From: Lytechinus pictus
Taxonomy: Eukaryota
Direction of reading: 5' to 3'
Length of the DNA stretch: 64,000 bases
NCBI RefSeq assembly: GCF_037042905.1
Contig: NC_087250.1
Location: 8,992,001-9,056,000, forward strand
A program made the translations under genes and the position numbers. This document shows positions 9,908 to 52,903 of the stretch, in pieces. Numbering within the stretch: position 1 is the stretch's first letter; each line of letters opens with the position of its first letter. The notes below the pieces were generated by a model. It was not told the DNA's origin and did no database searches. It saw only the letters and a program-made list of their open reading frames with translations.

Positions 9908-10112
9908 TAATGAATAAATGAATAAATGAATAAATGAATAAATAAATAAATAAATAAATAAATAAATGAATAAATAAATAAATAAATAAATAAATACATA
10001 AATACATAAATACATAAATACATAAATACATAAATACATGAATGAATGAATGAATAAATAAATAAATAAATAAATAAATAAATGAATAAATAAACAAATA
10101 AATAAATAAATA
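9908..10112. repeat. (AATA/AATG/ATAC)n microsatellite
   Basis: Tetranucleotide array read directly. Confidence 0.95.
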
Positions 10113-11016
10113 TTAAATGAAATGTCATTTTCTGGGAACTTTTTTTACCTTGAGTATTTCATGTCCTCTCCTTAAGTAAAAACAAATTCATTATGAAATG
10201 AAACATGAAATTGAAATAATGTATAAAGAATTTGGTTACAAAAGGGGTTAGGTCCACTTTGGACCATTCCGAGAAAAATCATGTTTTTTATTCTCATGCA
10301 CTTATTGCAATATTCTTATGATAAACTAAATTGTCATACTACCCGATCATGACTGTAAACATAAAATTGGGTGTAAAAGAAACGTACCTGTATTCAATTT
10401 TTTTCTACATATTTTGTTCAAAAATTATAATTGTGGACCAATAACCTCTTTTGCAAGCAATCTGAAATGAATTCAATCTCTTTTGAATATAAAAATGATT
10501 ATCTTTGCCAATTTTATTCACGTTTTAATGTTAATTTCAAATTTTTCTTTGGTATCATTATAGCGACTAAAAATCTATAGGTTTTGAGACAGAAAACAAT
10601 AAAATTTATGAAAAATGGACCTAACCCCTTTTGACAGGTGAGCTCTTTAGAAGAGTTTGGTTGCAAAAGGGGTTAGGTCCATTCCCAGAATTTTTTTTTA
10701 ATTCTCCCATATTGCAATATTCTTATGCGAAACTAAATTTTCATGATACCATATACCCTAAAATGAGATCACAAAACTGGGTATATATTTATTAAAGAAA
10801 TCTACGGTCGACTACGTGAATACTATGATTCACACTGTTGAAATGCTCAAATTTTATACAGTGTGAAGGTGATTTTACACCACACACGGGGCACTGCAGT
10901 GTGTTCATTCCAGTAGGGAGAACATTTTGATTGAACCCTAAGGTTTGCTTTTATAATTACGACAATCCCGTCACTATCTGTTTGACGGTAAATATCACTT
11001 CTGGAAAGAACGCCTG

Positions 11017-11233: not shown

Positions 11234-12603
11234 TGTGTTCTATACAGCCTATATGCATGTTGACAGTGTCAGAACACGATGTGAAATCACCTTCACACTG
11301 TTAATTTGAGCATTTCAACAGTGCGAATCCCTTATTCATATGGTCGACCATGTGAACACGATGTGAACAGTCACACTGTTGACGTGTCCACTATAGTGTG
11401 AAAATATCTTTACACTGTTGAATTTGAGCATTTTAACAGTGTGCATAATATTTTCACGCAGTCCACTTTTTAACACACTGGTCACGCTGCGTGACTCTGT
11501 GTTCCTTCCGGCTGGGATATGTGAGGCGGTGATATAGGGGCAGGGGCGAAAGCCCATATGACCTTTTAATAGTGAATAAAAGTTAGAAGAAAAAGAGATG
11601 AAGAGAAAGGGGAATAAAAAACAAAATACGGAAGAGTGTAAAAGAGATGTTGGAGCACGTATGTTCACGGCCTCAAATCAGTGGAGCGCGCCATTGAAAG
11701 GCCTTCCCGCCTAGCCGTATTGTTAGCGACGTTCGTGAGCATCACTTTGCTCACTCTCTAAAATGTCTGCGACATTAAAATCATAAAAACAATGGAATCG
11801 TTAAATTTCAGTGAGGCTATGAATGTTTATCACTTACGTTGACTATCAGTGTACCAACATATACCAAATTTAAAAGCAAGTGTTGGTAAGACGTCGAATT
11901 ATCAGTCATTTCGATGCAATCCCAAAATTGATGAAAATATAACAGAAATTTGATATAGCATTGCAAAATCCTTATTTTTGAATCACCTTAATTTTTTATT
12001 TTCTTTAAAAGCATCTTAGTACATTTCCTAGAATTTTTCATAACTGATAACGGTAGTGGATTATTGATTCCAGTTTTTTAAAGGAAATGACAGGCATTTG
12101 AAATCAGCTAAATTTTTAAAAGAAAATCGTTAGATTCGAACAACTTACTAATAGTTCTCCGAAAGAAGAGTTATATTCTATGTTTTGTGTTGTAAATGAT
12201 ACATGACGATAAATTTTACGAGTATATCAATGCATGTTGGATAACCTTTTCCACGATGAGTTTCGTAATTGAGAGAAAAATCAAGTTCATTCCTAGCACA
12301 CGAGCCGCAGAATGATAAATTTTAGCGTGCGCACACGGGCTGATCGCCGTGTCTGCGGGGACGGATATCTAGTCCCATACTGGTGTAAGGTGGTATTTTC
12401 CACGTACCTTTTCCCCTTGTAATGATCACTTCGCACTTTAGTGCTTAATTTTGACACTTAATCTGTGAAATTAATGGTTTAACGATTTTGGAAAATGCTC
12501 GGAATATACCTGACACATAAATGATTTCATTTTCGAGAATTATTATTTCTTTCCTGAATTACCAAAAGGCAAATTTAGGTCAAGATTGCATTATGTAACA
12601 TAC

Positions 12604-12816
12604 TGTGGCGGCCCTCCTTCTTGGAACGGGTTCTGGATGCTGGGGGGCCGGCCTGTCCCTTGCCTCTTTCACCTTCATCCGTTGATGAATTACTAGCCAT
12701 CTTTGATGCGAGCAGCTTCCTTATAATCTGTATAATATGGCTTTATGTAGAGACCTGGGCGTGTTCCGTTTTCCCAAAATATATGGGGGTGGAGTGTTGA
12801 GGGGTAGTCTGAACAG
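12604..12816 (-). repeat. Truncated 3' LTR (U5 end only)
   Basis: Identical by eye to 17429-17641; joined directly to integrase coding sequence with no polypurine tract. Confidence 0.9.
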
Positions 12817-15800
12817 TAGGGTAGCAAGAATGTTGATCAGTGTCCGGTTGAACCTTTCAACCATCCCATCACTCTTTGGGTTGTACGGTGTCGTCCTTGT
12901 CTTTCTGACACCCAGTAATTGACAAACTTCTTGGAAGATGTTGGACTCGAAGTTCCTGCCCTGGTCACTATGTATCTCATTAGGAACTCCATAGCGGCAG
13001 ATGAATTCGTCCACTAGCTTCCGTGCCACTGTTTCAGCTCTTTCATCTGGTATTGCATATGCCTCGACATACTTGGTATAATAGTCAGCTACCACAAGAA
13101 TGTACTTGTTCCCGTCATCAGTAACTGGCAATGGTCCCATAATGTCCAGGGCGATCCTCTCCATTGGATATCCACTCTGCCTCTGCTGAAGCGGAGCTCT
13201 TTTCCATGGTCCTGCCTTCTGTCGGCGAGCGCAGTCTGGACATTGCCTAATGAAGGATCTGACATCTTCCTTCATTCCTACCCAGTAGAAACGCTCCTGT
13301 ACTTTGTGTAGAGTCTTTGTCATACCAAGATGTCCTGCCATGGGAGAAGAGTGTAGGTCTAGTAGCACCTCCGGTATCAGAGCTTTAGGTAGTACATAAC
13401 GCCACCTGACATCTCGCCCATCTCCTGATTCCCACCTCCTGTAGAGAACACCATCTTTGACCTCTAGCTGGTCCCAGTGATCCAGGAGAACCTTGACCTT
13501 AAAAGGATATGCCGTCGCCTCTTCCCGGGATGGCTTCCTCCCTTCCACCAGTGCATTCCTGACTGGATTTATGTTAGGATCTTTCTGCTGGGCCTCTTGG
13601 ATGTCAGCTAGGTTATCATTCCTCAACGTGATAACGTTGATATTCCCAGTGTCTCCTCCATAGATGCAGCCTCCTTCTCGCTTACACTGCCTGCATGGTC
13701 TTCGTGATAGAGCGTCAGCGTTGCTGTGAATCCTTCCAGCTCTGTGTATAATCTCAATGTCGTAGCTTGATATGACTTCCAGCCATCTTGCCAGCTGACC
13801 TTCAGGTTGCCGGAAATTCATCAGCCATCTCAGAGCTCCATGATCAGTCCTCACCTGGACGTGGCGACCATAAAGATACTGCCTGTAGTGTTTGAGGTAC
13901 ACTACTACAGCAAGTAGTTCCTTGCGGGTTACACAGTAGTTCCTTTCTGGTTTGCTTAGGACTCGGCTTCCATAGGCTATCACCCGTTCCTGGCCATTCT
14001 GTATCTGGGAGAGTACACCACCGATACCATCATTGCTGGCGTCTGTGTCCAGAATGAACCTTCCCTCCACAGTAGGGTATACCAGTATTGGAGCCGTGAC
14101 TAGTCTGTGCTTCAGTTCCTCAAAGGCCTCTTGGCAGTCCTGATTCCACTCGAACTTCCGTCCTTTCTCTGCCAGTTGATGCAGAGGTCTAGCAATTCTA
14201 GCAAAGCCTTCAACGAAGCGACGGTAATAAGATGCAAGGCCTAAGAATCCACGGACCTCCCTCACTGACTCAGGTCTGGGCCATGTCCTGATTGTTTCTG
14301 TTTTGTCCTTCTCAGTCGATATGCCTTCTGCAGAGACGACGTGCCCGAGGTATGAAACAGAAGTCTTGAACAAGTTGCACTTCTTTGGCTTCAGCTTCAG
14401 CCCTGTCTGTCTTAGACGTTCAAACACCTGCTGCAGCCTCGCCATCTCCTCATCAATGGATTTCCCGAACACGATCACGTCATCCAAGTAGACCAATAGA
14501 GTCTCCCAGTGCAGTCCTCTCAGTACCTGGTCCATGAGTCTTTCAAACGTTGCCGGGGCGTTGCACATGCCAAAAGGCATAACCTTCCAGGCATACAGTC
14601 CCCCATCTACTAGGAAAGCTGATTTCTTTTTAGCATCTGAGTCAAGCTCTACCTGCCAGTACCCACTAGCAAGGTCCAACGTTGAAAACCATTTGGCTCC
14701 AGAGAGTGCATCAAGGGTCTCGTCGATACGAGGGAGAGGATATGCATCCTTAATGGTAACACTATTCAGTTGCCTGTAATCAACACAGAAGCGTTGGGAG
14801 CCGTCTTTCTTCCTGACTAAGACGATGTTGGCTGCCCATGGACTGTCTGAAGGCTCGATGAGTTCCCTGTCCAGGAGATCATTGACATGCTTCCTGATTT
14901 CATCTCGCTGTCCAAATGGATGTTTCCGTGGCCTCTGTTTGATTGGTCTGGTCTGCCCGGTGTCAACTGTATGCTTCACCAGGTTGGTTTTCCCCAGATC
15001 ATAGTCTCCCTTAGAAAAGACATCCTGGTATGTAGTCAGTAGCTTAGCAATAGGTGCATGGTACTGCTCTGGCACCTCTTGTATACTCCGCTCGTACAAA
15101 TCAGTCAGGTACTCTGGTAGATCAATCTCCTCACTGGAAAGATGAGATGCTCGGATATCTAGTTCTGATACTGCCGACAAATATCCTAGCTCTGTCCCCT
15201 TCTTTATCACACGTTGTGATCCTGTAGGGTTGTATACTCTAACTGGGACTGCTCCATTACTAGTTCTGACGAGGGTCCTGGCCAAGATGATGCCTTTCTG
15301 TGTAAGTTGACGTCTATCATTTGATGCTTCGACCATGCCTGTAACGTCATCTGAAACCCCATCCAGTACTTTTCCTGTAATGATGCCTTCTCGGCCTGCC
15401 GGTATGGTGTACATCTCAGTAGCTATGATGCGGAAGCAAGTTCTAGTGTTGTCATCATGGCGACACTGAACTGAACCCCACTTGGTTTCCATTGTAGCAG
15501 TCTCCAAGTTAAGCCTTGCTCCTAACTGTAGAAGATTATCCATGCCCAAGACTCCATCGCTACAGATATCAGCGACAAGGGTGATCCTTGCCTTCCCCTG
15601 GCCTATTATCACTTCTGTGTGGATCTTTCCATCCACCTCTAGTTGTGAGCCATCTGCAAGCATAACCTTCTCTGTAGTAGCTTGAATCACAGGTTTCTCT
15701 TGTAGTTTCCTATAGCCTGACTTGGAGATGTATGTATCTGTTGCTCCTGTGTCTACCAGAAAACTCAGCTGTGTCCCACCGATAGTGACTGGCACATACA

Positions 15801-16035
15801 TGCCCTTCATAATTCCTTTGTTGATTTCTCCATTGTACCTGGTTGTAACTATTGGCTGTGTGGCATTTGGTATTGAGTGGCTGGTGCTTCCAGGTTCCAC
15901 GGCCGCGCCATGCCCCCCTGGGGCGACCTTACTTCGTTTGTTGAGCTCTGATATTGTTGCTCGGCTTGATGAATCTGAGCCTCGTCTCTCATCCTCTTTT
16001 TGCACTTCCTCTTCATGTGGCCTTTCTTTCCACAA
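12721..16035 (-). CDS. pol: Gypsy Pol polyprotein (protease, RT, RNase H, C-terminally truncated integrase)
   Basis: Motifs FLVDTGA (protease), YLDD (RT), DAS..GGVLSQ (RNase H), HSSPMAGH...CPDC (integrase Zn finger), ALDIMGP/SDQG/VERFNRTL (DDE). The last ~31 aa are read from LTR sequence. The TTG start is probably not used; expression by frameshift from gag is likely. Confidence 0.95.
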   Translation of the reverse strand: MWKERPHEEEVQKEDERRGSDSSSRATISELNKRSKVAPGGHGAAVEPGSTSHSIPNATQPIVTTRYNGEINKGIMKGMYVPVTIGGTQLSFLVDTGATDTYISKSGYRKLQEKPVIQATTEKVMLADGSQLEVDGKIHTEVIIGQGKARITLVADICSDGVLGMDNLLQLGARLNLETATMETKWGSVQCRHDDNTRTCFRIIATEMYTIPAGREGIITGKVLDGVSDDVTGMVEASNDRRQLTQKGIILARTLVRTSNGAVPVRVYNPTGSQRVIKKGTELGYLSAVSELDIRASHLSSEEIDLPEYLTDLYERSIQEVPEQYHAPIAKLLTTYQDVFSKGDYDLGKTNLVKHTVDTGQTRPIKQRPRKHPFGQRDEIRKHVNDLLDRELIEPSDSPWAANIVLVRKKDGSQRFCVDYRQLNSVTIKDAYPLPRIDETLDALSGAKWFSTLDLASGYWQVELDSDAKKKSAFLVDGGLYAWKVMPFGMCNAPATFERLMDQVLRGLHWETLLVYLDDVIVFGKSIDEEMARLQQVFERLRQTGLKLKPKKCNLFKTSVSYLGHVVSAEGISTEKDKTETIRTWPRPESVREVRGFLGLASYYRRFVEGFARIARPLHQLAEKGRKFEWNQDCQEAFEELKHRLVTAPILVYPTVEGRFILDTDASNDGIGGVLSQIQNGQERVIAYGSRVLSKPERNYCVTRKELLAVVVYLKHYRQYLYGRHVQVRTDHGALRWLMNFRQPEGQLARWLEVISSYDIEIIHRAGRIHSNADALSRRPCRQCKREGGCIYGGDTGNINVITLRNDNLADIQEAQQKDPNINPVRNALVEGRKPSREEATAYPFKVKVLLDHWDQLEVKDGVLYRRWESGDGRDVRWRYVLPKALIPEVLLDLHSSPMAGHLGMTKTLHKVQERFYWVGMKEDVRSFIRQCPDCARRQKAGPWKRAPLQQRQSGYPMERIALDIMGPLPVTDDGNKYILVVADYYTKYVEAYAIPDERAETVARKLVDEFICRYGVPNEIHSDQGRNFESNIFQEVCQLLGVRKTRTTPYNPKSDGMVERFNRTLINILATLLFRLPLNTPPPYILGKRNTPRSLHKAILYRL

Positions 16036-17525
16036 TAGTAGCAGCTACCATCAAACTTGTCTGAATTTCCCTGCTTCTGCTGTTGCTTGTCACTAGGTAC
16101 CACAGTCTGAGGTTGTGGCTGTAGTGCAGTCCTGATGGCCTCTACCAATTCTTCCTTCAATGTGGTCATCTCAGCATTACGCTTGGAGAGTTCTTCCTTT
16201 AAGGTAGCTACCATAGCTTTCACTTCTGAAATTGGTTCGGAGGTTGATTCATCTTCCTCATTCTCCTTTGTCATTGCCCTGCTGTACTTGGGTTTCCTGC
16301 TGCTCCGCTGGTCTTCAGAATGATGGAAGGCCTCAGCTACCACTGCAGCATGTACCATATCATCCAATGTCTTACACTGGTTGTTGAACACTGCCTCTCT
16401 AAGCTTGGGTTTCACAAGGGCGTCCATGAAGTGTCCCTTCGCCAATCTGTCCCGAACATCAAAATCCAGCTCTGGATAGGCCGATGATGTGAGCTCTCTG
16501 ATGCTTTGTGCAAGCTCCTTTAGTGTCTCGCCCTCCTGTCTCTGTCTTTGTTTCATCTCTAGTAGATGATTCTCAGCCTGTTTATCGTCTGAGAACCGGT
16601 TGGCAAGCATTCTCTTCAGGTCACTGAAGCCTACTATCTGCCTTTGTTCACGTAGCAGCCTTAGTGCCTGACCTCGTAAGCATGATGCTAGGATCCTCCC
16701 CGCTTCTTCATCATCCCAGCCATTCACTGCTCGGCATGAGTCGAAATGTTGGCTGTAATCAATCCATGATGAACATCCATCATATTTGTCTGGCTTGATA
16801 AAGTGGGTACCCCTAGGCTTCTGTTGGGCATCCTGTGATGACCTTGGTTTTGACGTATGCCCATGTTGGAGTGTATCTTCCAATGCTTGCTGGATTATGG
16901 CCTGGAGCCTACTGTCATCAATTGGAGGGTCTCGCACAGCAGTTGGTTGCACCGCTGGTGATGCCGTTTCCCTGGCAGCATTTTGTACTGGCGAATTAAT
17001 AGGAATGCCTCTCCTATTCTGCCACGTAGTGTTGGATTGGACTTCCTCCTCCTCAGTTGATGATGCTGTTTGTGTAGACCTATCTGTGCTCCCCCGAGTA
17101 CTCAGTTTTCTTCGTCTCCGTCTGGTAGGCTTACTCTGCTCATTAGAGAATGACAGAAGCAGCTTCTCCATCTGTGCTTGCATAGATTTAGCCTGTTGCA
17201 TCATCATAACCTGGGCATTGGCTTGCTGTTTCATCATCTCGTCCTGAGCTAGCTTGGCTTGATTTTTCATCATCTGTGCGATCTCCATCAGAGCCTCGGT
17301 CTTCTGCCTCCTCCTACTGGTAGATAACTTGATTCCAGAATGTGTAGAAACTGATTCATCCCCTGAAGAATTGCTGCCATCTGTTCCAGATGTCCTCACA
17401 TTCTCCATCCCACTTCTGACACCATTTGTGTGGCGGCCCTCCTTCTTGGAACGGGTTCTGGATGCTGGGGGGCCGGCCTGTCCCTTGCCTCTTTCACCTT
17501 CATCCGTTGATGAATTACTAGCCAT
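15849..17525 (-). CDS. gag: Gypsy Gag with CCHC zinc knuckle
   Basis: 558-aa ORF upstream of and overlapping pol; capsid-like KPDKYDG..W..Y..HF....NGW segment; CYYCGKKGHMKRKC knuckle. The start codon is uncertain (17525 lies inside the LTR). Confidence 0.88.
   Translation of the reverse strand: MASNSSTDEGERGKGQAGPPASRTRSKKEGRHTNGVRSGMENVRTSGTDGSNSSGDESVSTHSGIKLSTSRRRQKTEALMEIAQMMKNQAKLAQDEMMKQQANAQVMMMQQAKSMQAQMEKLLLSFSNEQSKPTRRRRRKLSTRGSTDRSTQTASSTEEEEVQSNTTWQNRRGIPINSPVQNAARETASPAVQPTAVRDPPIDDSRLQAIIQQALEDTLQHGHTSKPRSSQDAQQKPRGTHFIKPDKYDGCSSWIDYSQHFDSCRAVNGWDDEEAGRILASCLRGQALRLLREQRQIVGFSDLKRMLANRFSDDKQAENHLLEMKQRQRQEGETLKELAQSIRELTSSAYPELDFDVRDRLAKGHFMDALVKPKLREAVFNNQCKTLDDMVHAAVVAEAFHHSEDQRSSRKPKYSRAMTKENEEDESTSEPISEVKAMVATLKEELSKRNAEMTTLKEELVEAIRTALQPQPQTVVPSDKQQQKQGNSDKFDGSCYYCGKKGHMKRKCKKRMRDEAQIHQAEQQYQSSTNEVRSPQGGMARPWNLEAPATQYQMPHSQ
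17407..17424 (-). promoter_or_regulatory. Primer-binding site complementary to the tRNA-Leu 3' end
   Basis: TGGTGTCAGAAGTGGGAT begins 4 nt after the 5' LTR end and is complementary to the ...AUCCCACUUCUGACACCA end of eukaryotic tRNA-Leu(CAA/CAG). Confidence 0.88.
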
Positions 17526-18065
17526 CTTTGATGCGAGCAGCTTCCTTATAATCTGTATAATATGGCTTTATGTAGAGACCTGGGCGTGTTCCGTTTTCCC
17601 AAAATATATGGGGGTGGAGTGTTGAGGGGTAGTCTGAACAGGTGAAATATAGAAGAACAGGGGATTTCTATTGGAGCTGTATAATCTCTATGGGAAGGCT
17701 AATACTGTAGAAGTCAATCGGATTCCATAGATCACACAGGTTGGAGACGATGATTACATTTGGTGTATGACAACGGTCATAATTTAATTATACATCATTG
17801 TTCAGCATTTGTACAGGTTATCACCATTAACACCGTCACCAATTATCCAGAAATGTATTTGCAGTAGTAGAAATTAAGCGAGCATTGTTCATTTCCAAAC
17901 CTTTTCTTGATTCAGCCCAGTTGGAGAGGAGCGCAGAGAGTTCGTCGTCTGACTCCGACCTCAGCCGCCGTCGAAGTGACGAGATCACTGCGAAACTCCG
18001 CTATTTATAGTCTCCGAGAGCTGCCTTACGCAGTGCGTTGCGTAAGTCGATCATTGAGTTCTAAC
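17429..18065 (-). repeat. 5' LTR, main part (TATA box, R, U5)
   Basis: Ends in CGCCACA next to the PBS; CTATAAATAG on the minus strand at 18001-18010. Continues at 24326-24397 once the insert is removed (reconstructed LTR ~709 bp). Confidence 0.8.
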
Positions 18066-21062
18066 CACTGAACTAGAGATACGTGGAATACGTGTCCCTA
18101 TTCCCAACGTACACAAAGCCGTGCGGCAACGAAGAGCATCGGACTTCACGCTCGACTGAGCGCGCCGCCATTTTGCTAGGTCAATACTGGCTAGTCGACA
18201 AATGCTGCGTGAAGGCAGATGGGAGAAAGGAACGCAAAGAAAGTGTTCCTTGTGCTGTTTAAAGTTTTAGTTTGCTTTGTTACATCATGTAATATATGTT
18301 ATTGAATACTTTCATAACTGAAAATGTTGATTTAGTCACATTTTTGTATTAAAGGGGAGTAAATATACAGACATGAAATCATAAAAACTCGACCTTTTTC
18401 ACGCGCACACTATGACAAAGAAAGGCCCAACAACAACTCTCTCTTATTTCTCCCCTTTATATCATCTCGATCTCCCTCTTTATTATTTTTCCTTTCTCTT
18501 TGGCTTCTTTCTCTCTGATTTTCCTCTTCTTTCTCATCTCTCTCTCTCTTACCTTCCCTTTCTATATATCCCCCTTATATCTCTCTTTTATTTCCCCATC
18601 TCCCTTATATCAAGCCCTCTTATCTCCCTCTCGTCTCGCCTTTCTCTCCTCACCTCTTTCTCATTCCTCGTCATTTCCCCCTTTCTTTCCCTCTCTCGAT
18701 CTCTTTGATCTTCCTCTTCTTTCCATCTCTTCTCGTTGATCGTCTGTTTCTTTTTTTCTCTCCGGCTGCATCTTTACCATTTTGCCTTTCTCATTTCAAC
18801 TTTCTCTATATAAATTTTGAGTAAATATTCCCTTCCCTCCCTCTCATACTGTTCAATCACACATTTAGGGTGAAAAATTGGATAGAAGTTTGAGGACAAG
18901 AAGGTTGTTACTTTTAATGAGCCTTCAAAGTTGGACCTTCGTGTGCTCAGCCATGAAATATCTACTAAGTACAGTGTATATAAAAATGGGCACAATATAA
19001 TTTGAATTCTTATGAAATTTAATTTGGAAGAGCATGGATGTTGCACGACATGTGCTTATACATCAATACACCTTTACATAAAGGAAGGGGTGATGGATAA
19101 ACAAATTCAACTCTAACAAGTTTACTAATTAGAGCACAGATCAGAAAAACAAAGCAATGGTAATTCCATTTAAAAAGTTGTGGCACTAAATTTCGCTTAT
19201 TTTCACATACCAGATAATTATAAGCATATCCTGGTCAGTATATATATGAAATATTCCACATGTCAAAAATTGCACAAAAAGGCCACTACCTCTTGTCAAA
19301 TATTTCCAGGGTGACCAGACGTCCCGTATTTCCCGGGATCGTCCCGTATTTTGCTCCTTTGTCCCGGCGTCCCGACAAACCCTTTCCGGGACACCTATCT
19401 GTCCCGTATTTTTAGAATATTGAACAAAATGTAGTTGATACATTTAAAAGTGACGAATTTTCATCAAATAACCTAACAGATTACGAAGCAGAGACAACAA
19501 TAAATCGATAACTAAACTTTTGCAAAGTTTTGCGGGTGATTTTTATCCTAACCCAATAGGCCTACATTGCAAACGAGCTGGCTTCCTGCCTGTGTGTGGC
19601 AGGCTCTATGCATGTAGGATCGGAGCAGATTCTCAATGGTGCAAACAATCTCACATGATAAACAGTTTTTCCACCAAAATAATCGCAAAATCGGCGGGAA
19701 ATTTTTATGATCATATATTATAGATTATCAGATTACTGATTTAATAGGAGGAACAAGTTTTTTAATTTTCATAACTGGATCTACATGTAGTTGTTTTAGC
19801 TTTCGTTTTGAGTCTTGTTGTGTAGGATGCCGGCGCTGTTTCCTCTAATTTGTAAGTTGACAATGTTTCACTTTGAAATTTTATTCATTTCTAAACCACT
19901 TAGTTTTTCAAAATTTTAAAGATAAAAAACACCAAATATATCATTGTTATTTCTGTTAGATGATTGGATTGCTTTTGTTTGCTTGAAGTTTGAACTTTTC
20001 CTCTTTCATTTTTATTCTTCATCCTTCTATCCTTCCTGCTTGCTTTTTTTGTTCCATCTATCTTTTAATATTTCCTACCTTTCTTTTCTGATCCAGTCTG
20101 TGTGTTAATTTTCTTTCTTTCCTTCTTTCTCTTATCTGCCCTTTTTATCTACTTCCTTCTCCCTTCCTCACGTTTAATTTCTTTTCGTTTTTTCTCTCCT
20201 TCCATTATTTTTTTTTCATTCTCTCATCCCTCCAATCTTTCCTCCCTCTCTTTCATTCTTTCTTTCATTCTTTATTCTATTTTTCCTTCTAATTCTTTCT
20301 TTCTTTCCCTCCCTCCCTTCCTTCCTTCCTTCCCCCTTCATGTTTTCTTCTTTCTTCGTTTCTTTCTTTCAAAGAATGAAAACATTTTTCTTTCCGGCAT
20401 TCTTTGTTTCCCTTCTTTTTCTTACTTTTTCTTTCTCACCTTTATTTTGTCTGTCACACATCTTCCCTTTCTTTCTTTTTCTTTCTTTCTATATTCAATG
20501 AATTCAACGAATGACGGAAACCTTTTTTCTCTTTTATTCTTTCTTTCATCGTCTTTTTAATTATTCTAACTTTCTTTCATGTTTTCCCCTTCATTTTCCC
20601 CTTCATTTCTTTTCTTTCTCTCCTTCATTCTTTCGTTCACCCTCCCTTCCAATTCTTTATATTTTTTTCACAAGTATAATACTGTGTAGCCTTCTTTGAT
20701 TATCTTTTTTTTTTCTGGATTGTCCCGTATTTCATTTTTTGAAATCTGGTCACCCTGATTTAAACCCTTTTTTAAAACTACATGAATTACCAGGTCCCAG
20801 TACATTGTGCATATAAAAATATGTTTGTACATGATTGGCTTAATGACATTAAAATACACTTTGCCACACTAAGTAGTACATCAGTATTAATCTTATATTT
20901 ATAGAGAAAACATATTGCATCTTGCACATACTTTCAATTGCCTTCTACGGCGCGTTCTCGAACAATTGACCTAGCAAAATGGCGGCGGTCACGTGACTTA
21001 TCGAGTTCGCCGGCGATGTTTTGCTTGGGTGAACACGACTTCCACGTATCTCTAGTTCAGTG
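18066..21062 (+). mobile_element. Non-autonomous TIR DNA transposon, copy A (8-bp TSD; P-superfamily-like, tentative)
   Basis: 23-bp TIR CACTGAACTAGAGATACGTGGAA; flanked by GTTCTAAC at 18058-18065 and 21063-21070; no transposase ORF. Strand is arbitrary. Confidence 0.88.
19307..20757. mobile_element. hAT (Blackjack-like) element nested in copy A
   Basis: TIR CAGGGTGACCAGA / TCTGGTCACCCTG, with GTCCCG subterminal repeats; the flanks do not form a TSD. Confidence 0.7.
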
Positions 21063-21070
21063 GTTCTAAC

Positions 21071-24000
21071 CACTGAACTAGAAATACGTGGAAGTCGTGT
21101 TCACCCAAGCAAAACATCGCCGGCGAACTCGATAAGTCACGTGACCGCCGCCATTTTGCTAGGTCAATTGTTCGAGAACGCGCCGTAGAAGGCAATTGAA
21201 AGTATGTGCAAGATGCAATATGTTTTCTCTATAAATATAAAATTAATACTGATGTACTTAGTGTGGCAAAGTGTATTTTTATGTCAGTAAGCCAATCATG
21301 TACAAACATATTTCTATATGCACAATGTACTGGGACCTGGTAATTCATGTAGTTTAAAAAAAAGGGTTTAAATCAGGGTGACCAGATTTCAAAAAATGAA
21401 ATACGGGACAATCGATAAAAAAAGATCATCAAAGAAGGCTACACAGTATTATACTTGTGAAAAACTATAAAGAATTGGAAGGGAGGGTGAACGAAAGAAT
21501 GAAGGAGAGAAAGAAAAGAAATGAAATGAGAAAGAAGAAAGAAAAAAACGAAGGGGAAAATGAAAGAAAGTAAGAATAATTAAAAAGACGATGAAAGAAA
21601 GAATAAAAGAGAAAAAAGGGTTTCCGTTATTCTTTGAATTCATCGAATATAGAAAGAAAGAAAAAGAAAGAAAGGGAAGATGTGTGACAGACAAAATAAA
21701 GGTGAGAAAGAAAAAGTAAGAAAAAGAAGGAAAAAAAAGAATGAAGGAAAGAAAATTGTTTTCATTCTTTGAAAGAAAGAAACGAAGAAAGAAGAAAACA
21801 GGAAGGGGGAAGGAAGGAAGGAAGGGAGGGAGGGAAAGAAAGAATTAGAAGGAAAAATAGAATAAAGAATGAAAGAAAGAATGAAAGAGAGGGAGGAAAG
21901 ATTGGAGGGAGGAGAGAATGAAAAAAAATGGAAGGAGAGAAAAAACGAAAAGAAATTAAAGGTGAGGAAGGGAGAAGGAAGTAAATAAAAAGGGCAGATG
22001 AGAGAAAGAAGGAAAGAAAGAAAATTAACACACAGACTGGATCAGGAAAGAAAGGTAGGAAATATTAAAAGATAGATGGACCAAAAAAAAAGCAAGCAGG
22101 AAGGATAGAAGGATGAAGAATAAAAATGAAAGAGGAAAAAGTTCAAACTTCAAGCAAACAAAAGCAATCCAATCATCTAACAGAAATGATAATGATATAT
22201 TTGGTGTTTTTTAGATATATATCTTTAAAATTTTGAAAAACTAAGTGGTTTAGAAATGAATAAAATTTCAAAGTGAAACATTGTCAACTTACAAATTAGA
22301 GGAAACAGCGCCGGCATCCTACACAACAAGACTCAAAACGAAAGCTAAAACAACTACATGTAGATCCAGTTATGAAAACTAAAAAAACTTGTTCCTCCTA
22401 TTAAATCAGTAATCTGAGAATCTATAATATATGATCATAAAAATTTCCCGCCGATTTTGCGATTATTTTGGTGGAAAAACTGTTTATCATGTGAGATTGT
22501 TTGCACCATTGAGAATCTGCTCCGATCCTACATGCATAGAGCCTGCCACACACAGGCAGGAAGCCAGCTCGTTTGCAATGTAGGCCTATTGGGTTAGGAT
22601 AAAAATCACCCGCAAAACTTTGCAAAAGTTTAGTTATCGATTTATTGTTGTCTCTGCTTCGTCATCTGTTAAGTTATTTGATGAAAATTCGTCACTTTTA
22701 AATGTATCAACTACATTTTGTTCAATATTCTAAAAATACGGGACAGATAGGTGTCCCGGGAAGGGTTTGTCGGGACGCCGGGACAAAGGAGCAAAATACG
22801 GGACGTCTGGTCACCCTGGAAATATTTGACAAGAGGTAGTGGTCTTTTTGTGCAATTTTTGACATGTGGAATATTTCATATATACTGACCAGGATATGCA
22901 TATAATTATTTGGTATGTGAAAATAAGCGAAATTTAGTGCCACCACTTTTTAAATGGAATTACCATTGCTATGCTTTTCTGATCTGTGCTCTAATTAGTA
23001 AACTTGTTAGAGTTGAATTTGTTTATCCATCACCCCTTCCTTTATGTAAAGGTGTATTGATGTATAAGCACATGTCGTGCAACATCCATGCTCTTCCAAA
23101 TTAAATTTCATAAGAATTCAAATTATATTGTGCCCATTTTTATATACACTGTACTTAGTAGATATTTCATGGCTGAGCACACGAAGGTCCAACTTTGAAG
23201 GCTCATTAAAAGTAACAACCTTCTTGTCCTCAAACTTCTATCCAATTTTTCACCCTGAATGTGTGATTGAACAGTATGAGAGGGAGGGAAGGGAATATTT
23301 ACTCAAAATTTATATAGAGAAAGTTGAAATGAGAAAGGCAAAATGGTAAAGATGCAGCCGGAGAGAAAACAAGAAACAGACGATCAACGAGAAGAGATGG
23401 AAAGTAGAGGAAGATCAAAGAGAGAGAGAGAGAGGGAGAGAAAGGGGGAAATGACGAGGAATGAGAAAAAGGTGAGGAGAGAAAGGCGAGACGAGAGGGA
23501 GATAAGAGGGCTTGATATAAGGGAGATGGGGGAAATAAAAGAGAGATATAAGGGGGATATATAGAAAGGGAAGGTAAGAGAGGGAGAGATGAGAAAGAAG
23601 AGGAAAATCAGAGAGAAAGAAGCCAAAGAGAAAGGAAATATAATAAAGAGGGAGATCGCGATAATATAAAGGGGAGAAATAAGAGAGAGAGGGGCATGAA
23701 AGTAGAAATGGAAGAAATAGAAGGGGATGGAGAAAAGGGAGGATAAGAGAGATGGACAGAAGAGGAAAATCAGAGAAAATGAGATGAGATGAATAGTTGA
23801 ATGAGAAGGGAGGTTTAAAAAAAAAGCTAGAGAAAAGGGACATGATTTCTAATCGTTAAAAGATTTTTTTTTAATGCAACCAGCTTGTAGGCCTTTACTG
23901 TTCAGACAAATTGTAGGCCTACTCAGAAAGCAAATTTGTTGTTGGGACTTTCTTTGTCATAGTGTGCGCGTGAAACAGGTCGAGTTTTTATGATTTCATG

Positions 24001-24317
24001 TCTGTATGTTTACTCCCCTTTACATTTTTTTAAATACAAAAATGTGACTAAATCAACATTTTCAGTTATGAAAGTATTCAATAACATATAGTTCATGATG
24101 TAACAAAGCAAACTAAAACTTTAAACAGCACAAGGAACACTTTCTTTGCGTTCCTTTCTCCCATCTGCCTTCACGCAGCATTTGTCGACTAGCCAGTATT
24201 GACCTAGCAAAATGGCGGCGCGCTCAGTCGAGCGTGAAGTCCGATGCTCTTCGTTGCCGCACGGCTTTGTGTACGTTGGGAATAGGGACACGTATTCCAC
24301 GTATCTCTAGTTCAGTG
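21071..24317 (-). mobile_element. Non-autonomous TIR DNA transposon, copy B (inverted relative to copy A)
   Basis: Reverse complement of copy A with scattered substitutions and indels, plus ~250 extra bp (~23690-23936); flanked by GTTCTAAC at 21063-21070 and 24318-24325. Confidence 0.88.
21374..22818. mobile_element. hAT (Blackjack-like) element nested in copy B
   Basis: Same CAGGGTGACCAGA TIRs at the homologous position. Confidence 0.7.
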
Positions 24318-24325
24318 GTTCTAAC

Positions 24326-24397
24326 GCACCAAAAGCTATAGCGCCATCTACATTTACTGCATTATAACCAAAAACCGTAGCGGACGGGTTCGCTACA
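24326..24397 (-). repeat. 5' LTR, displaced U3 start
   Basis: Begins TGTAGCG on the minus strand (imperfect inverse of the other LTR end) and abuts TSD ATAC. Confidence 0.8.
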
Positions 24398-25304
24398 ATA
24401 CTCACATTGACTGTGTACGTATAGCGCATATCTATTACAATTGTCCTGATGAAAATATATGTTATAGAATCATATTGTATGCAAAAATCATGATGGGTGT
24501 CATGGTCTGAGTTTTCTTTGTGTATACTGCATGATTCCAATTTCATTTGAACATGTCAATGTATGCAATGGCAATTTCAATCAGTTTATAATTATCTTTT
24601 GTTTAGTCAGCGTTTATTCTTCAATGTGCAGAATTGGTTTGCAAGCGGTTTTTACACCAAAGAGCTCATTCCTGGCACTTCGACTAAAGATGGATATGAT
24701 ACTTTATTGATAACGGTTATCCATTTTTAAAAACAATATTTATTTACTGCAGCCAAGGAGTTCCTGACAAAATTCATTTATTTGACTATAAACTAGTATG
24801 AATGTCCCCGGAATGGTCTTAAGATAAAAAATAAATACCTTTTTTTTTCGCAAATGAATATATATACTTTACTAGTTGTAGCTGTAAAATGACTGTGTCT
24901 TCCTTTCCTCTTAATTTAATATTTTAGTATTTCATTTACATAACCTAAATGAAGGAGGATTCGGAACGATTATTGTATGATGATTGAAAGGACCCCTCCC
25001 CCCAAAAAATAATAATGAATTCGAATAAATGAATAAATGATTAAATGAATAAATGAATAGATGAATAAATGAATAAATAAATAAATGAAATTAAAAAATA
25101 AAAGTCAGTAATCTTTAACAGAATAGTTCGAAAGCTTATTTCCAGTGGGGTCCTCAACACGTATATTATAATCATAAAAGGTAAAATCTGTTTACACTAG
25201 AAAAACCAATAGGAATTACTATTAAAAATAAATAAGATCTTGAGATGGTATGTACAAGAAATATATAAAAAATAGAAAGAAGAAATTAAAAGGTATGATG
25301 CTGT

Positions 25305-26844
25305 CTCAAGCGGATCGGGAGAAGGGGGCGTTCCTTTCCCCCTCTCTTTCATATAAACCTGGTGAGTTATGTATAATATTATCTCAATATTAATTCTATA
25401 ACAAACTACTTAAAATCCTCATTTCATGACAGTTTAACTTTAACAAAAATTTCGGCTTGCGATTTGCGCTCGCATTGATTGTTGAAAATATATTAACTCG
25501 TGCATCTTAATTACAAAAGTGCTTTAAATGTCCAGTTTTCAAGCCATAATATTAAGATATTTCGCGCTCTCATTAGGCTTATTACATTAATAAATAAGAT
25601 ATTGATTTAATAATCACGATGTCATTTTTTCAGAATGGAATATCGACAATTTCTATTTCGTGCTTAGGAAGAGAAATAGGAAGATAGTCATCTTTTTCAT
25701 TTGATGACAAAATGTTCTTAGGATGTCCCGGTCCTATATGTCAAAGCTCAAAGGAATAATATTAAAACATATCAGCTTATTTTAAACTGTGATCCATATC
25801 CACCTCACAATTTTCCTACAAAGTGCTTGAAATACAGAGCTTAAATTGTCCCTTTTTCAGATCGGAATATCAAATGTTTTAAGCTCGCGCTTCGCACTCG
25901 CTTTATTGATTTTCATGATAAAAAAAGTAATTTAGAATGTCCAGATTCTAGGTCGCGCATGTTTATTCAGATACGCAGCTTGTTCTCTATTTTAAACCGT
26001 AAATTCACTGTCTTGATCGGCTTTTGGTTCAGAACCAAAAGCCGATGCAGAATCGGCTTTTGGTTTATCTTGCACTGCGTTTACACGCTGTTACAGCTCA
26101 CGGTTCAGAACCGCGAGCCGATGCAAAAGCCGATTAAGTGTAAACATGGTATAAATCATCCAATATATCAAACATTTTCTGCTCGCGCATTGTGCTCGCA
26201 TTATTAATGTAAAAATATTTCCAATTATCATTTTCATGATTTACAAAAAATTAAAAGTGTCCCATTTTTAGGTGTAAATCTCGATTTTTTCCGCATGCGC
26301 TTCGCGCTCGCATAAATTGTTAAGTTATATACTTATCCTTATCACGATTACAAAAAGTGCTTAGAATTTCCATACTTCGTTTAGAAATGTCAAAATTTTC
26401 AGCTCACGCTTTTCGCTCGCATTATTTGATTGTTGAAAAATGTAAGGTCTTCATGGCTAACTATAAACAGCCGTTAACAGATCCCTTTTTGATCAGATAA
26501 AAACATATATTAAAATTTTCTGTTCGCGCTTCGCGCTCGCAGTAATTATTTAGTTTGTGGATAAACATTTGGTTTAGGATCACAAACATTGCCCAGAATA
26601 TTGAAATTTTAGGACAAAATACTTTGAAAAAAAATAGCTCGCTCTTTGCACTCGCACTATTTAAATAAGGCTTATGAGATTATTATATATTTATGTTGAT
26701 TTATAAGAATAAAGCTTAGAAATGACTATTATAAGACTACCCCTTCAAAGATACAAACAAAAATCAACTTCGAGCGGCCGATCGGGAAAATGTGGCTGAA
26801 AAAATTCGCCCCCCCCCTATTGGCAAAGGCTGGATCCGCCCCTG
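25305..26844. mobile_element. hAT-like non-autonomous element with GCTCGCGCTTCGCGCTCGC repeats
   Basis: Right end GGATCCGCCCCTG, degenerate left end; internal motif shared with 1308-2377 and 39396-40247. A small palindromic insert lies at ~25993-26153. Confidence 0.6.
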
Positions 26845-32129: not shown

Positions 32130-34510
32130 TTAGCATAATCCACAATGTGAACATATATTCACATAATCCATAGTATGAACATATATTCACATAATCCACA
32201 ATGTGAATGCGAAAATGTATTGACATAATCCACAATGTGAGCATATATCGACATAATCCACAATGTGAACATGTATTCACATAATCCGGAATGTGAACAT
32301 ATATATTTACATAATCTACAGTGTGAACATATATTCACATAATCCAGTGTGGACATATATTCACATAACGCACAGGGTGAACATTAATTTTATTCAGATA
32401 ATCCACAGTGTGAACAATATTCACATAATACACAGTGTGAACACTCCCACTGCATATGTTACAGGAAGAGAAATTATCTTATGGTTTTGGCCTGGTTAAA
32501 CTGGATGCTTTTGTGCGACTCACTTCTCCACATAATCCACAGTGTGAACATATAATTATTCACATAATCCACAATGTGAACACATATTAACATAATCCAC
32601 AATGTGAAAATTCATTGACATATTAATCCAAAATGTGAACATAAATTGACATAATCCACAATGTGAACATATATTCACATAATCCGGAATGTAAACATGT
32701 ATTAACATAATCCACAGTGTGGACATATATTCTCATAATCCATAATGTTAACATGTTAACATGTATTCACATAATCCACAATGTGAACATGTATTCACAT
32801 AATCCACAGTGTGAAAATATATTCACATAAAAATAATCCACAATGTGAACATGTATTCACTTAATCAACAATGTGAACGCACGATGAACACTCACACTGC
32901 ATATGTAACAGAAAGTGAAATTATCTTCACGGTTTTGGCTTGGTTAAGCTGGATCATTTTATGTGAATCCCTTCTTCACATAGTCCACTGTATGAACACA
33001 CTGTGAACACATTGTGAATACAAAGTGAACACACTTAACACATTATAAAGACACGGAAAACACAGTGAATTTACGGTAAATACACTGTAGTCACACTGAG
33101 CACACAGTAAACACACTGAACACACTGTAAACACACCGGACACACTATAAACACACTGTAAACACACTCACTGTGAACACACTCTAAACATACTGAACAC
33201 ACCATGAACACACCGTGAACACACTGAACACACTATAAAAGCAAACTAAAACACTGTGAACACACTGTGACCACACCGTGATCACAGTGTCAACACACTG
33301 AACACACCTTGTAAACATTGTGAACACGCTGAACACATAGTAAATACACTGCACAAACTGTAAACACACTAGACAATCTGTGAACACACTTTAACACATT
33401 GTTAAAACAACATAAAGACACAGAAAACACTTTGAATACACGGTAAACACACTGTAATCAACTGTGAATACACAGTAAAAACATTGTAGTTACACAGTGA
33501 ACACACAGTAAATATAGTGTAAACACACTTAATATACCGTGGAGGCGCGATAGCTCAGTCGGTAGAGCGGGGGATTTGTATTCCGATGACCAAGATTCGA
33601 TACCCACTTGGTGCGCTAGTGCCCCTTGGTAAGGCATAAATCCTCGTAGCCAGGGCCTTTGGGTAGGACCTTAAGCCGTCGGTCCTCTGGTTGCTTGCTT
33701 ACAAGCATTCATGCTTTCTTAGCAATCGGGTAAGAAAATCCCCACCAAAACACAAATAACACACTAAACACAGTAAACAAACTTGATACAATGGAAACAA
33801 ATATATCACACTTTAAACACACTGTGAACACAGTACACACACAGTAAATACAGTGTAAACACATTGAACATATCGTGAAAACACAGTTAACACACCAAAC
33901 ACACAGTAAACACACTGTATACAATGCAAACAAATATATCACACTTTAAACACACTGTGAACACATGAGTACACACACTGTGAACACACCGTGATCACAG
34001 TGTAAACACATCGTGTAAACATGTGAACACACTGTGAACACGCTGAACACATAGCAAATACACTGCACAAATTGTAAACACACTGAACACACGCTAGACA
34101 AACTGTGAACACACTTAAAAACACTGTAAACACACTGAACACAGTCTAAAGACACAGAAAACACTTTAAATGCACGGTTAACACATGGTGATCAAACTGT
34201 AAAAACACAATAAATACATTGTAGTCACACATGAAACAAACAGTAAATACAGTGTGAACACACTGACCACACCGTGAACACCGTGTAAACACACTGAACA
34301 CACCGTGAAAATACTGTGAACAGACTGTGAACACGCTGAACACATAGTAAATACACTGCACACACTGTAAACACACTGAACACACCGTAAAGACACTGTA
34401 GCCATGCTGTAATACACTGCGAACACACTATAAACACACTGAACACACTCACTGTGAACACATAGTAAACACAATGAACACACCGCGAACACACGGTGAA
34501 CTCACTGTGT
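32130..34510. repeat. Minisatellite/low-complexity array (28-bp CACATAATCCACAATGTGAACATATATT units, then ACACACTGTGA-like units)
   Basis: Read directly; it produces the spurious Cys/Val-rich ORFs in the track. Confidence 0.9.
33541..33760 (+). mobile_element. tRNA-derived SINE (second family)
   Basis: A-box TAGCTCAGTCGGTAGAGC, degenerate B-box GATTCGATACCC, then a non-tRNA body; inserted into the low-complexity array. Confidence 0.75.
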
Positions 34511-52470: not shown

Positions 52471-52903
52471 TGCAATATAGGTATAAATTCTAAAAAAGTG
52501 TTGGCCATGAATTGTTTGATTTAAACCAGGCTTAAACTACCCCCTGCGCGAGTTAACTTTTTGAGGATCTATTACCACACTTAGACCAGGGTTAACTTAA
52601 ACCTTGCTATCGGAATACGAAACTTGAACCTAGGTTTAAATATGGCAGTTTATTACCACACTTAGACTAGGGTTAAGTTAAACCACGCTATCAGAATACG
52701 GGCCAATCTGTTTAACCATTGGCGCAATGAGCCAAACATTTTCAGGGGGACGGGAAATGACGTATGTAGGGGGGGGGGGGGGTTCGAAAAGTGCGAGTGA
52801 GAGAAGCAAGCAAGGGAATTTTTTACCTTTGTTATTTGAACAAAAATGAATTTTGTGATTGATTTTGACATACCTATGCTAAAGAACATAGTGTGATCAC
52901 AAT

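What the first reader, a model, noticed from the sequence alone, without database searches (positions are those of the whole stretch)
18058..24325. 6.25-kb palindrome formed by two inverted transposon copies sharing a triplicated 8-bp target site
Seen: GTTCTAAC occurs three times in the same orientation (18058-18065, 21063-21070, 24318-24325), bracketing copy A (18066-21062) and inverted copy B (21071-24317). The copies differ reciprocally: A lacks ~250 bp present at ~23690-23936, B lacks ~20 bp present at ~19331-19350, and there are scattered substitutions. The host LTR copies look identical. Inference: two independent donors inserted at exactly the same site, the second into the TSD of the first, rather than a foldback duplication in place. 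That implies strong target-site re-use. The product has ~3-kb arms around an 8-bp spacer and could form cruciforms or long dsRNA just upstream of the Gypsy promoter. Double insertion at one site is known for Drosophila P elements; whether this family is described I cannot tell.
Basis: partly seen in the sequence, partly recalled or inferred. Interest (0 to 1): 0.85.

Follow-up and report, generated by a model that had tools for sequence, protein, structure and literature searches.

The report
Two inverted transposons sharing one target site
Two slightly different copies of a 3-kb non-coding cut-and-paste transposon sit back to back at exactly the same 8-base target, which makes a 6.25-kb palindrome; this kind of double insertion is already known from fly P and hobo elements.

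Summary
GTTCTAAC occurs three times in one orientation (18058, 21063, 24318), each flush against a transposon terminus. Copy A (18066-21062, 2997 bp) and inverted copy B (21071-24317, 3247 bp) are both complete. Each has a 30-nt terminal inverted repeat and a 23-nt subterminal inverted motif at both ends. They are 98.0% identical, with 59 substitutions and 19 indels, including 246 bp found only in B and 20 bp found only in A.

The flanks are unique and unrelated, so a fold-back duplication or a palindromic-read artefact does not fit. The best reading is two integrations in place, the second into one copy of the first's target duplication. This is the structure described for the Drosophila singed-weak double P element and for P and hobo dimers.

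Several points remain unshown. Independent donors are likely but not demonstrated. The superfamily (hAT or P) is unresolved. No other copy, empty site or read evidence could be obtained, because the single read-laying run was lost to a filter. The palindrome is not inside an LTR; it starts 417 bp outside the 5' LTR of a neighbouring Gypsy element. It is a new example of a known kind, of modest interest.

The parts
18058..18065 (.). Target-site duplication, copy 1 (GTTCTAAC), left outer flank
18066..21062 (+). Copy A of a non-coding TIR transposon, 2997 bp, orientation L to R
   Evidence: No Pfam family for its ORF 18385-18708 (107 aa) or its ORF 20069-20560 (163 aa), the two of its ORFs that were scanned
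18066..18095 (+). Outer terminal inverted repeat of A (L end). 30 nt, the first 23 identical in both ends of A and in B's outer end; B's inner end has one change
   Evidence: (I22)
18163..18185 (+). 23-nt subterminal inverted motif CGCCGCCATTTTGCTAGGTCAAT, L end of A
   Evidence: 4 exact copies in the window, 0 expected
19320..19339 (+). 20 bp present in A and absent from B. It is followed by a repeat of its first 8 nt, so slippage or a short duplication is likely
20965..20987 (-). 23-nt subterminal inverted motif, R end of A
21033..21062 (-). Inner terminal inverted repeat of A (R end)
21063..21070 (.). Target-site duplication, copy 2, the only DNA between the two elements. The axis of the palindrome lies between 21066 and 21067
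   Evidence: (I6: 191-nt arms, 99%, 2 nt apart)
21071..24317 (-). Copy B of the same family, 3247 bp, inverted (R end at the centre, L end outside)
21071..21100 (+). Inner terminal inverted repeat of B (R end), with one G-to-A difference at 21083
21146..21168 (+). 23-nt subterminal inverted motif, R end of B
23690..23935 (-). 246 bp present in B and absent from A. Its composition partly matches the element's purine-rich interior, so it is more likely a deletion in A's lineage than an insertion in B
   Evidence: the direction of the change is inferred
24198..24220 (-). 23-nt subterminal inverted motif, L end of B
24288..24317 (-). Outer terminal inverted repeat of B (L end)
24318..24325 (.). 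Target-site duplication, copy 3, right outer flank
12604..17641 (-). Context only: neighbouring Ty3/Gypsy LTR retrotransposon. LTRs 12604-12816 and 17429-17641 are identical. The pol ORF 12724-16044 carries protease, RT, RNase H and integrase; the gag ORF has a zinc knuckle. The doublet starts 417 bp beyond its 5' LTR

Best explanation
This is a real double insertion formed in place. A non-autonomous cut-and-paste transposon that makes 8-bp target duplications (hAT or P superfamily) integrated at GTTCTAAC. A second, slightly different member of the same family later integrated, in the opposite orientation, into one of the two copies of that duplicated 8-mer. The result is TSD-A-TSD-B(inverted)-TSD.

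Shown: the anatomy. There are two complete elements, three identical direct 8-mers, unique unrelated flanks, and 98% identity with reciprocal indels.

Inferred: the order of events, and that the two copies came from different donor copies. Also inferred is that re-use of the site reflects a palindromic GT....AC-type target preference that a first insertion preserves and duplicates, as in the staggered-cut palindromic target model.

Consequences, all inferred. The doublet can extrude a hairpin or cruciform. If transcribed through, it would give a roughly 3-kb hairpin RNA. It also places like and unlike transposon ends in abnormal relative orientations, as in the unstable singed-weak allele and chromosome-breaking double Ds.
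For: 1. The three GTTCTAAC copies lie flush against all four termini, in the same orientation. This includes the central CT, which is not self-complementary.

2. Each arm is a whole element. It has a 30-nt TIR and a 23-nt subterminal inverted motif at both ends.

3. The outer flanks are unique in the window and unrelated to each other. An inverted duplication of a segment, or a palindromic chimeric read, would therefore not produce this structure.

4. A and B differ by 59 substitutions and 19 indels, including 246, 20, 15, 11 and 8 bp. That is too much, and of the wrong kind, for sequencing error alone.

5. The centre is intact: 191-nt arms, 99% complementary, 2 nt apart, folding at -245 kcal/mol with z = -48. 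Long near-perfect palindromes are fragile (abstract start of PMC3855049 in the listing; Leach 1994 as cited in PMC5932611). An intact centre therefore suggests a young junction between copies that had already diverged.

6. The target fits known preferences. GTTCTAAC matches hobo's GTTTAAAC at the 6 outer positions, and matches GT....AC of hobo and the P element (tables read). GTTNNAAC makes up 0.05% of the window's 8-mers. The restored 14-mer has 5 of 7 self-complementary pairs, and 2.2% of the window's 14-mers have 5 or more.

7. Precedent. A TSD preserved in the junction is the signature of double insertion for P and hobo (PMC5932611, passages). Inverted doublets exactly 8 bp apart are predicted and are seen in singed-weak (PMC2577343, passages).
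Against: There is no independent support for the assembly at the centre, because the one read-laying run was lost.

No empty site, single-insertion allele or other family copy was found. Independent donors, target preference and the element's true termini therefore all rest on this one locus.

The target-motif fit was chosen after the fact from several published consensus sequences, and it cannot tell hAT from P.

The substitution spectrum is unusual, with 26 transitions to 33 transversions. Many small indels lie in homopolymer or low-complexity runs, so part of the measured divergence may be alignment or base-calling noise.

In published fly data, inverted dimers are rarer than direct ones: 8 of 85 strains against 55 of 85.
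Confidence: 0.7

Rival explanations
1. A local hop of a single element. After replication, the resident element, or its sister-chromatid copy, excised and re-inserted into the target duplication next to the copy that stayed, giving two identical copies. The present 2% divergence and the indels arose later by mutation, or by excision and gap repair copied from other family members.
For: P elements transpose preferentially to nearby sites, and head-to-head P tandems were frequent in a screen (Tower et al. 1993, as cited in PMC5932611 and PMC2577343; the paper itself was not held). The outermost 284 bp and innermost 188 bp are the most similar parts, at 99.3% and 98.9%. That would fit interiors being rewritten by repair.
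Against: 59 substitutions spread along the whole length (3 to 12 per 300-bp bin) imply a long time since the event. Over that time a near-perfect 3-kb palindrome with an intact centre would be expected to suffer central deletions; this is an inference from the fragility literature seen. The gap-repair variant cannot be excluded.
Confidence: 0.18
2. An assembly artefact. The two copies are not adjacent in the organism's DNA. Possible causes are mis-joined reads, haplotypes carrying insertions in opposite orientation, or a palindromic chimeric long read.
For: Palindromic chimeras are a known failure of long-read libraries (recalled, not from a call).
Against: A fold-back chimera duplicates whatever lies beside its breakpoint and gives near-identical arms. 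Here the symmetry stops exactly at the transposon termini, the flanks are unrelated, and the arms differ by 59 substitutions and a 246-bp indel. A haplotype mis-join would have to overlap on only 8 bp, and would itself require two insertions at the same site.
Confidence: 0.07
3. A fold-back inverted duplication of one resident element in place (template switch or hairpin-primed synthesis). Alternatively, a Foldback-type element with 3-kb arms that moved here as a unit.
For: The overall shape is a long palindrome with a very short spacer.
Against: Duplication about an axis in the right-hand TSD would give GTTAGAAC and an inverted left flank on the right side. The sequence instead shows GTTCTAAC followed by unrelated DNA. 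A unit that had moved would carry the 8-mer of its birthplace at the centre, and identity with the new site's TSD would be about a 1 in 65,000 coincidence. An alternative parse with a 2-bp TSD (CT) and termini AACCACTG... needs the outer flanks to read GTT and AAC by chance.
Confidence: 0.03

Closest known systems
singed-weak double P element of Drosophila melanogaster (Roiha, Rubin and O'Hare 1988, as described in Linheiro and Bergman 2008, PMC2577343; passages read; the 1988 paper itself was not held)
   Same: Two defective elements of one family lie in inverted orientation at one target, separated by exactly the 8-bp target length. The doublet was formed in place.
   Different: The elements here are about 3 kb each and belong to an uncharacterised family in an unidentified, apparently non-Drosophila genome. 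Whether it is a P relative is unknown. Instability by loss of one or the other copy is documented for singed-weak and untested here.
P-element and hobo dimers formed by double insertion in natural D. melanogaster populations (McGurk and Barbash 2018, PMC5932611; passages read)
   Same: A copy of the 8-bp target duplication is preserved in the junction between two elements; for hobo, an 8-nt motif lies between the TIRs. The mechanism is attributed to insertion-site preference, because a first insertion preserves and duplicates its target.
   Different: Those dimers are mostly head-to-tail. Inverted ones were rarer (8 of 85 strains against 55 of 85) and were not studied in detail. This one is tail-to-tail, with arms that differ by 2% and by reciprocal indels.
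Maize Ac 'killer' composite insertions and Mu killer (bioRxiv 10.1101/2020.01.07.897926; passages read)
   Same: A natural inverted duplication of DNA-transposon sequence, including TIR and subterminal regions, which could be transcribed into a hairpin that feeds small-RNA silencing of the family.
   Different: Those arose by alternative transposition with re-replication, or by rearrangement, and contain partial elements. dsRNA and siRNAs were measured there. Here both elements are complete, the origin is double insertion, and no RNA evidence exists.
Chromosome-breaking double Ds of maize and Foldback elements of Drosophila
   Same: Two copies of a transposon in inverted arrangement, or long inverted arms, place transposon ends in abnormal relative orientation and are associated with breakage and rearrangement.
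   Different: In double Ds, one copy is inserted inside the other, not beside it at a shared target. Foldback arms are built of tandem repeats and are not complete elements with both ends, as each arm is here.

Membership tests
Double insertion at one target (singed-weak type inverted doublet) | Two elements of one family, each with both of its own termini | tested here: met
   Four termini and four subterminal motifs, two per copy
Double insertion at one target (singed-weak type inverted doublet) | The spacer between the elements is exactly one target-duplication length and identical, in the same orientation, to both flanking duplications | tested here: met
   GTTCTAAC at 18058, 21063 and 24318, all on the + strand
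Double insertion at one target (singed-weak type inverted doublet) | The elements are distinguishable, so they derive from separate insertion events and not from copying in place | tested here: inconclusive
   59 substitutions and 19 indels show the copies differ. Whether the differences predate the junction needs other family copies, and none was obtainable
Double insertion at one target (singed-weak type inverted doublet) | Empty-site or single-insertion alleles exist, or the junction is confirmed in independent reads | not testable with these tools
No genome is held
hAT superfamily (non-autonomous member) | 8-bp target duplication fitting nTnnnnAn / GT....AC | tested here: met
   GTTCTAAC. 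Consensus sequences were read. NTNNNNAN makes up 9.8% and GTTNNAAC 0.05% of the window's 8-mers. Only one site is available, and the P element shares GT....AC
hAT superfamily (non-autonomous member) | Short TIRs whose first bases fit the hAT terminal consensus YARNG (recalled, not from a call) | tested here: not met
   The termini read CACTG, with C where a purine is expected at the third base. The consensus is recalled, so this counts weakly
hAT superfamily (non-autonomous member) | An autonomous partner with the same termini that encodes a hAT transposase | not testable with these tools
   No transposase domain among the window's 22 scanned of 30 ORFs of 110 aa or more. No genome is held
P superfamily (non-autonomous member) | 7-8-bp target duplication with a GT..AC-type palindromic target, and TIRs of about 31 bp starting with CA | tested here: met
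   8-bp GTTCTAAC and a 30-nt TIR starting with CA. P GTCCGGAC and 1360 GTTNAAC were read. The 31-bp P TIR length is recalled
P superfamily (non-autonomous member) | An autonomous partner that encodes a THAP-domain P transposase | not testable with these tools
   None among the ORFs scanned in the window. No genome is held
Hairpin-RNA 'killer' locus (Mu killer / Ac killer type) | Inverted duplication of transposon sequence, including TIR and subterminal parts | tested here: met
Hairpin-RNA 'killer' locus (Mu killer / Ac killer type) | Transcribed into dsRNA and processed to small RNAs that silence the family | not testable with these tools
   No reads could be laid
Foldback (FB-type) element | Long inverted arms that are themselves the element's termini, typically built of tandem repeats, flanked by a single TSD pair | tested here: not met
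   Each arm is a complete element with two termini, and a third TSD copy sits at the axis. The FB description is recalled

The most novel reading that the evidence does not exclude
The family's own termini (CAC...GTG) next to a GTT..AAC target regenerate a better palindromic target (GTGGTTCTAACCAC at the centre). Insertions of this family would then systematically attract a second, inverted copy. The resulting roughly 3-kb hairpin loci would act as self-made 'killer' loci, feeding small-RNA silencing of the family. That would be a built-in brake on a DNA transposon in an animal genome.
Probability: 0.07. Interest if true: 0.6.

Novelty: new member of a known kind. Interest (0 to 1): 0.3.

Why it matters
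Inverted doublets with a shared target duplication are direct footprints of target-site re-use by cut-and-paste transposases. They are also among the few natural routes to kilobase-scale near-perfect palindromes. Such palindromes are fragile sites and possible sources of hairpin RNA that can start transposon silencing.

A clean, undeleted example with 3-kb arms in a genome outside the fly and maize models would be a useful case. It could be used to test whether the palindromic-target model and 'killer locus' formation hold more generally.

On the present evidence it is a single locus of a known type. Its value depends on a genome-wide census and on RNA data that could not be obtained here.

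Tried and rejected
Read evidence. The look-up of sequencing runs listed 21 runs. Of these, 18 hold part of the stretch; the best share of sampled words was 0.45 and none reached half. Nothing was laid, so none of these runs counts as evidence for or against anything.

Whole genome. None is held for this window.

Other copies of the family. The rest of the window has none: blastn of copy B against the window with the doublet masked gave 0 hits at E<=1e-3, and the TIR and the subterminal motif occur only at the four ends. Exact-pattern scans found 0 matches in metagenome contigs for the TIR and for the subterminal motif, and 0 in prokaryote genome contigs for the TIR. A protein search with a 90-aa ORF from the element's non-repetitive part gave 0 hits.

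Annotation. Rfam gave 0 matches and tRNA scanning gave 0. The 3 ORFs scanned inside A or B matched no Pfam family. No open frame longer than 89 aa spans the restored empty site.

Earlier notes of this scan. Nothing was found by place, by sequence or by words.

Literature. The 13-nt terminus string appears in one unrelated paper only, as a primer, so I found no printed description of this family in the held library. Roiha 1988 and Tower 1993 are not held and are cited only through papers that describe them.

Readings considered and rejected. A 2-bp TSD parse. A similarity of CAGTGGTTCTAAC (TIR end plus TSD) to mammalian Charlie-type hAT termini (recalled); the homology between the copies runs inward from the 8-mer, not outward. 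Insertion into a Gypsy LTR; the doublet lies outside the element.
Full report
**What is in the sequence**

GTTCTAAC occurs three times in the 64-kb window, always on the + strand, at 18058-18065, 21063-21070 and 24318-24325. Three occurrences of an 8-mer are not remarkable in themselves. Shuffled sequence gives 1.95 on average, and 30 of 100 shuffles have three or more.

The placement is what is remarkable. The 21-nt string CACTGAACTAGAGATACGTGG occurs four times and nowhere else in the window: at 18066 (+), 21062 (-), 21071 (+, one mismatch) and 24317 (-). None of 100 shuffles gives a match. Each occurrence starts immediately beside one of the 8-mers.

The DNA therefore reads flank - GTTCTAAC - A - GTTCTAAC - B(inverted) - GTTCTAAC - flank. 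A is 18066-21062 (2997 bp) and B is 21071-24317 (3247 bp).

**Anatomy of the element**

Aligning the four ends shows a 30-nt terminal inverted repeat. Its first 23 nt are identical in three of the four ends, and B's inner end has one G-to-A change at 21083. After a stretch that differs between the two ends of one copy comes a 23-nt subterminal inverted motif, CGCCGCCATTTTGCTAGGTCAAT. This motif is present exactly four times in the window, once near each end of each copy.

The two ends of a copy (L and R) can thus be told apart. The arrangement is L-A-R | R-B-L, that is, tail to tail.

The interior is largely pyrimidine-rich (A) or purine-rich (B) low-complexity DNA with short degenerate tandem repeats. 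The three ORFs scanned inside the copies match no Pfam family. Rfam and tRNA scans are empty. The element is non-coding, hence non-autonomous.

**How alike the copies are**

A global alignment of A with the reverse complement of B gives 2899 matches and 59 mismatches (98.0%) with 19 indels.
- The largest indels are 246 bp present only in B (23690-23935), 20 bp present only in A (19320-19339, followed by a repeat of its first 8 nt), and 15, 11 and 8 bp present only in B.
- Many of the 1-4-nt indels sit in homopolymer or low-complexity runs.
- The substitutions are spread along the whole length (3 to 12 per 300-bp bin). There are 26 transitions and 33 transversions, and 8 substitutions lie at CpG sites.

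**Surroundings**

It bounds a Ty3/Gypsy element on the minus strand. Its pol ORF (12724-16044) carries protease, reverse transcriptase, RNase H and integrase domains, and its gag ORF has a zinc knuckle. Many relatives appear in the protein database, the best at 77% identity.

The doublet is not inside this element or its LTR. It begins 417 bp beyond the 5' LTR, upstream of it on the minus strand.

The sequences flanking the doublet (18040-18057 and 24326-24345) are unique in the window, so the window holds no empty-site copy. No open frame longer than 89 aa spans the restored site. The rest of the window contains no other fragment of the family.

**Why this is a double insertion in place**

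Three features decide it.

First, all three 8-mers are direct repeats, including the central CT, which is not self-complementary. A fold-back copy made about an axis in the right-hand duplication would leave GTTAGAAC and an inverted copy of the left flank on the right. The sequence shows GTTCTAAC followed by unrelated DNA.

Second, each arm is a complete element with both kinds of end. The symmetry stops exactly at transposon termini, which a palindromic chimeric read or a segmental inverted duplication would not respect.

Third, a pre-formed 6.25-kb unit that had moved here would carry the 8-mer of its birthplace at its centre. Identity with the new flanks would be about a 1 in 65,000 coincidence.

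I also considered a parse with a 2-bp duplication (CT) and termini AACCACTG... That parse requires the outer flanks to read GTT and AAC by chance, and I rejected it.

**Which superfamily**

An 8-bp duplication points to hAT or P. Other 8-bp families are possible, from recall.

GTTCTAAC fits the old hAT consensus nTnnnnAn. It matches hobo's GTTTAAAC at its six outer positions (Table 1 of PMC2577343). GTTNNAAC makes up only 0.05% of the window's 8-mers.

However, GT....AC is shared by hobo (GTNCGNAC) and the P element (GTCCGGAC), and 1360 has GTTNAAC (Table 4 of PMC3276498). The 30-nt TIR is of P-like length (recalled), and its start, CACTG, does not fit the recalled hAT terminal consensus.

With one site and no autonomous partner, I leave the superfamily open.

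**Mechanism**

The restored 14-mer around the target (3 + 8 + 3 nt) has 5 of 7 self-complementary pairs, and 2.2% of the window's 14-mers have 5 or more. This fits the staggered-cut palindromic target model.

That model notes that an insertion preserves and duplicates its target. It predicts second insertions in inverted orientation exactly 8 bp away, as in the singed-weak allele (PMC2577343, passages).

McGurk and Barbash found that P and hobo commonly form dimers in wild flies, with the 8-bp duplication retained in the junction. They attribute this to insertion-site preference. They note that inverted dimers are rarer, perhaps because long inverted repeats are selected against (PMC5932611, passages).

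The locus here has exactly that signature.

**Independent donors or a local hop?**

This could not be tested directly, because no other copy of the family could be reached. No genome is held, three public-collection scans found nothing, and a protein search found nothing.

Indirectly, 2% divergence with reciprocal indels would need a long time if it arose after the junction formed. Yet the centre is intact: 191-nt arms, 99% complementary, 2 nt apart, and the central 400 nt fold into an almost perfect hairpin at -245 kcal/mol, z = -48.

Long near-perfect palindromes are fragile (abstract start of PMC3855049 in the listing; Leach 1994 as cited in PMC5932611). I therefore favour a recent junction of two copies that had already diverged.

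A local hop followed by excision and gap repair from other copies remains possible. I give it about 0.18.

**Consequences (inferred, not shown)**

The doublet can extrude a cruciform. If transcribed across 21066, it would make a roughly 3-kb hairpin RNA. Inverted Ac duplications and Mu killer do make dsRNA and siRNAs that silence their families (bioRxiv 10.1101/2020.01.07.897926, passages).

The neighbouring Gypsy 5' LTR points away from the doublet, so it is not an obvious source of read-through.

The outer ends are two L ends and the inner ends two R ends. Unlike ends of different copies lie in direct orientation, which recalls chromosome-breaking double Ds and the hypermutable singed-weak allele. 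The double Ds comparison is recalled; singed-weak is.

**What is missing**

I therefore have no read support for the central junction, no test for empty or single-insertion alleles, and no RNA evidence.

I put the chance of an assembly artefact at about 0.07, on structural grounds only.

**Verdict**

It is a new, clean example of a known kind of structure. It has modest interest unless a genome-wide census shows that the family forms such doublets systematically, or RNA data show that it acts as a hairpin source.

Noticed in passing
window 12599-12603 and 17641-17646: The Gypsy element with identical 213-bp LTRs shows no matching 4-6-bp target duplication. Its flanks read ...CATAC on the left and GGTGA... 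on the right. The boundaries may be misjudged by a base or two, or the element may be a recombinant of two copies.
   Followed up: partly
window 18163-18185, 20965-20987, 21146-21168, 24198-24220: The 23-nt subterminal motif contains GCCGCCATTTTG, which resembles the YY1-type core GCCAT (recalled). It could be a transposase-binding site or a promoter element of the transposon.
   Followed up: no
window 25023-25089 and 9908-10121: (GAATAAAT)n microsatellite just right of the doublet (8.4 copies), with a similar array near 10 kb.
   Followed up: no
window 25449-26555: Six dispersed copies of a roughly 40-nt motif (TTTTC.GC.CGCGCTTCGCGCTCGCA...) spaced 110-430 bp apart (family D4). A weak relative lies at 1892-2181 (67%). 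It may be a decayed array of short repeats or MITE-like units.
   Followed up: no
window 51278-52489: Satellite-like array with units of about 146-165 bp, 7 copies at 70-89% identity (families D4 and D5).
   Followed up: no
window 5222-5668, 5975-6224 and 58241-58538: Tandem repeats of 49-50 bp. The array at 5222-5668 has relatives 53 kb away at 58241-58538 (D2). The array at 5975-6224 is a separate repeat family (D6).
   Followed up: no
window 32964-34459: A 1.5-kb block of complex short-period repeats (9-, 11- and 20-nt offsets) with strong strand skew.
   Followed up: no
window 34950-35201 and 63739-64000; 63092-63511: A dispersed repeat pair, 93-95% identical and 28.8 kb apart (D10 and D11). 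Next to the second copy is a reverse-transcriptase fragment on the minus strand (RVT_1, E=6e-6, below Pfam's cut-off). This is probably another retroelement running off the window.
   Followed up: no
database proteins P0069 and P0110: Two relatives of the Gypsy pol are filed under bacterial MAGs of a clam-symbiont genus. Gypsy polyproteins are eukaryotic, so these look like host contamination in those bins. They hint, weakly, that the window's organism may be an invertebrate.
   Followed up: no
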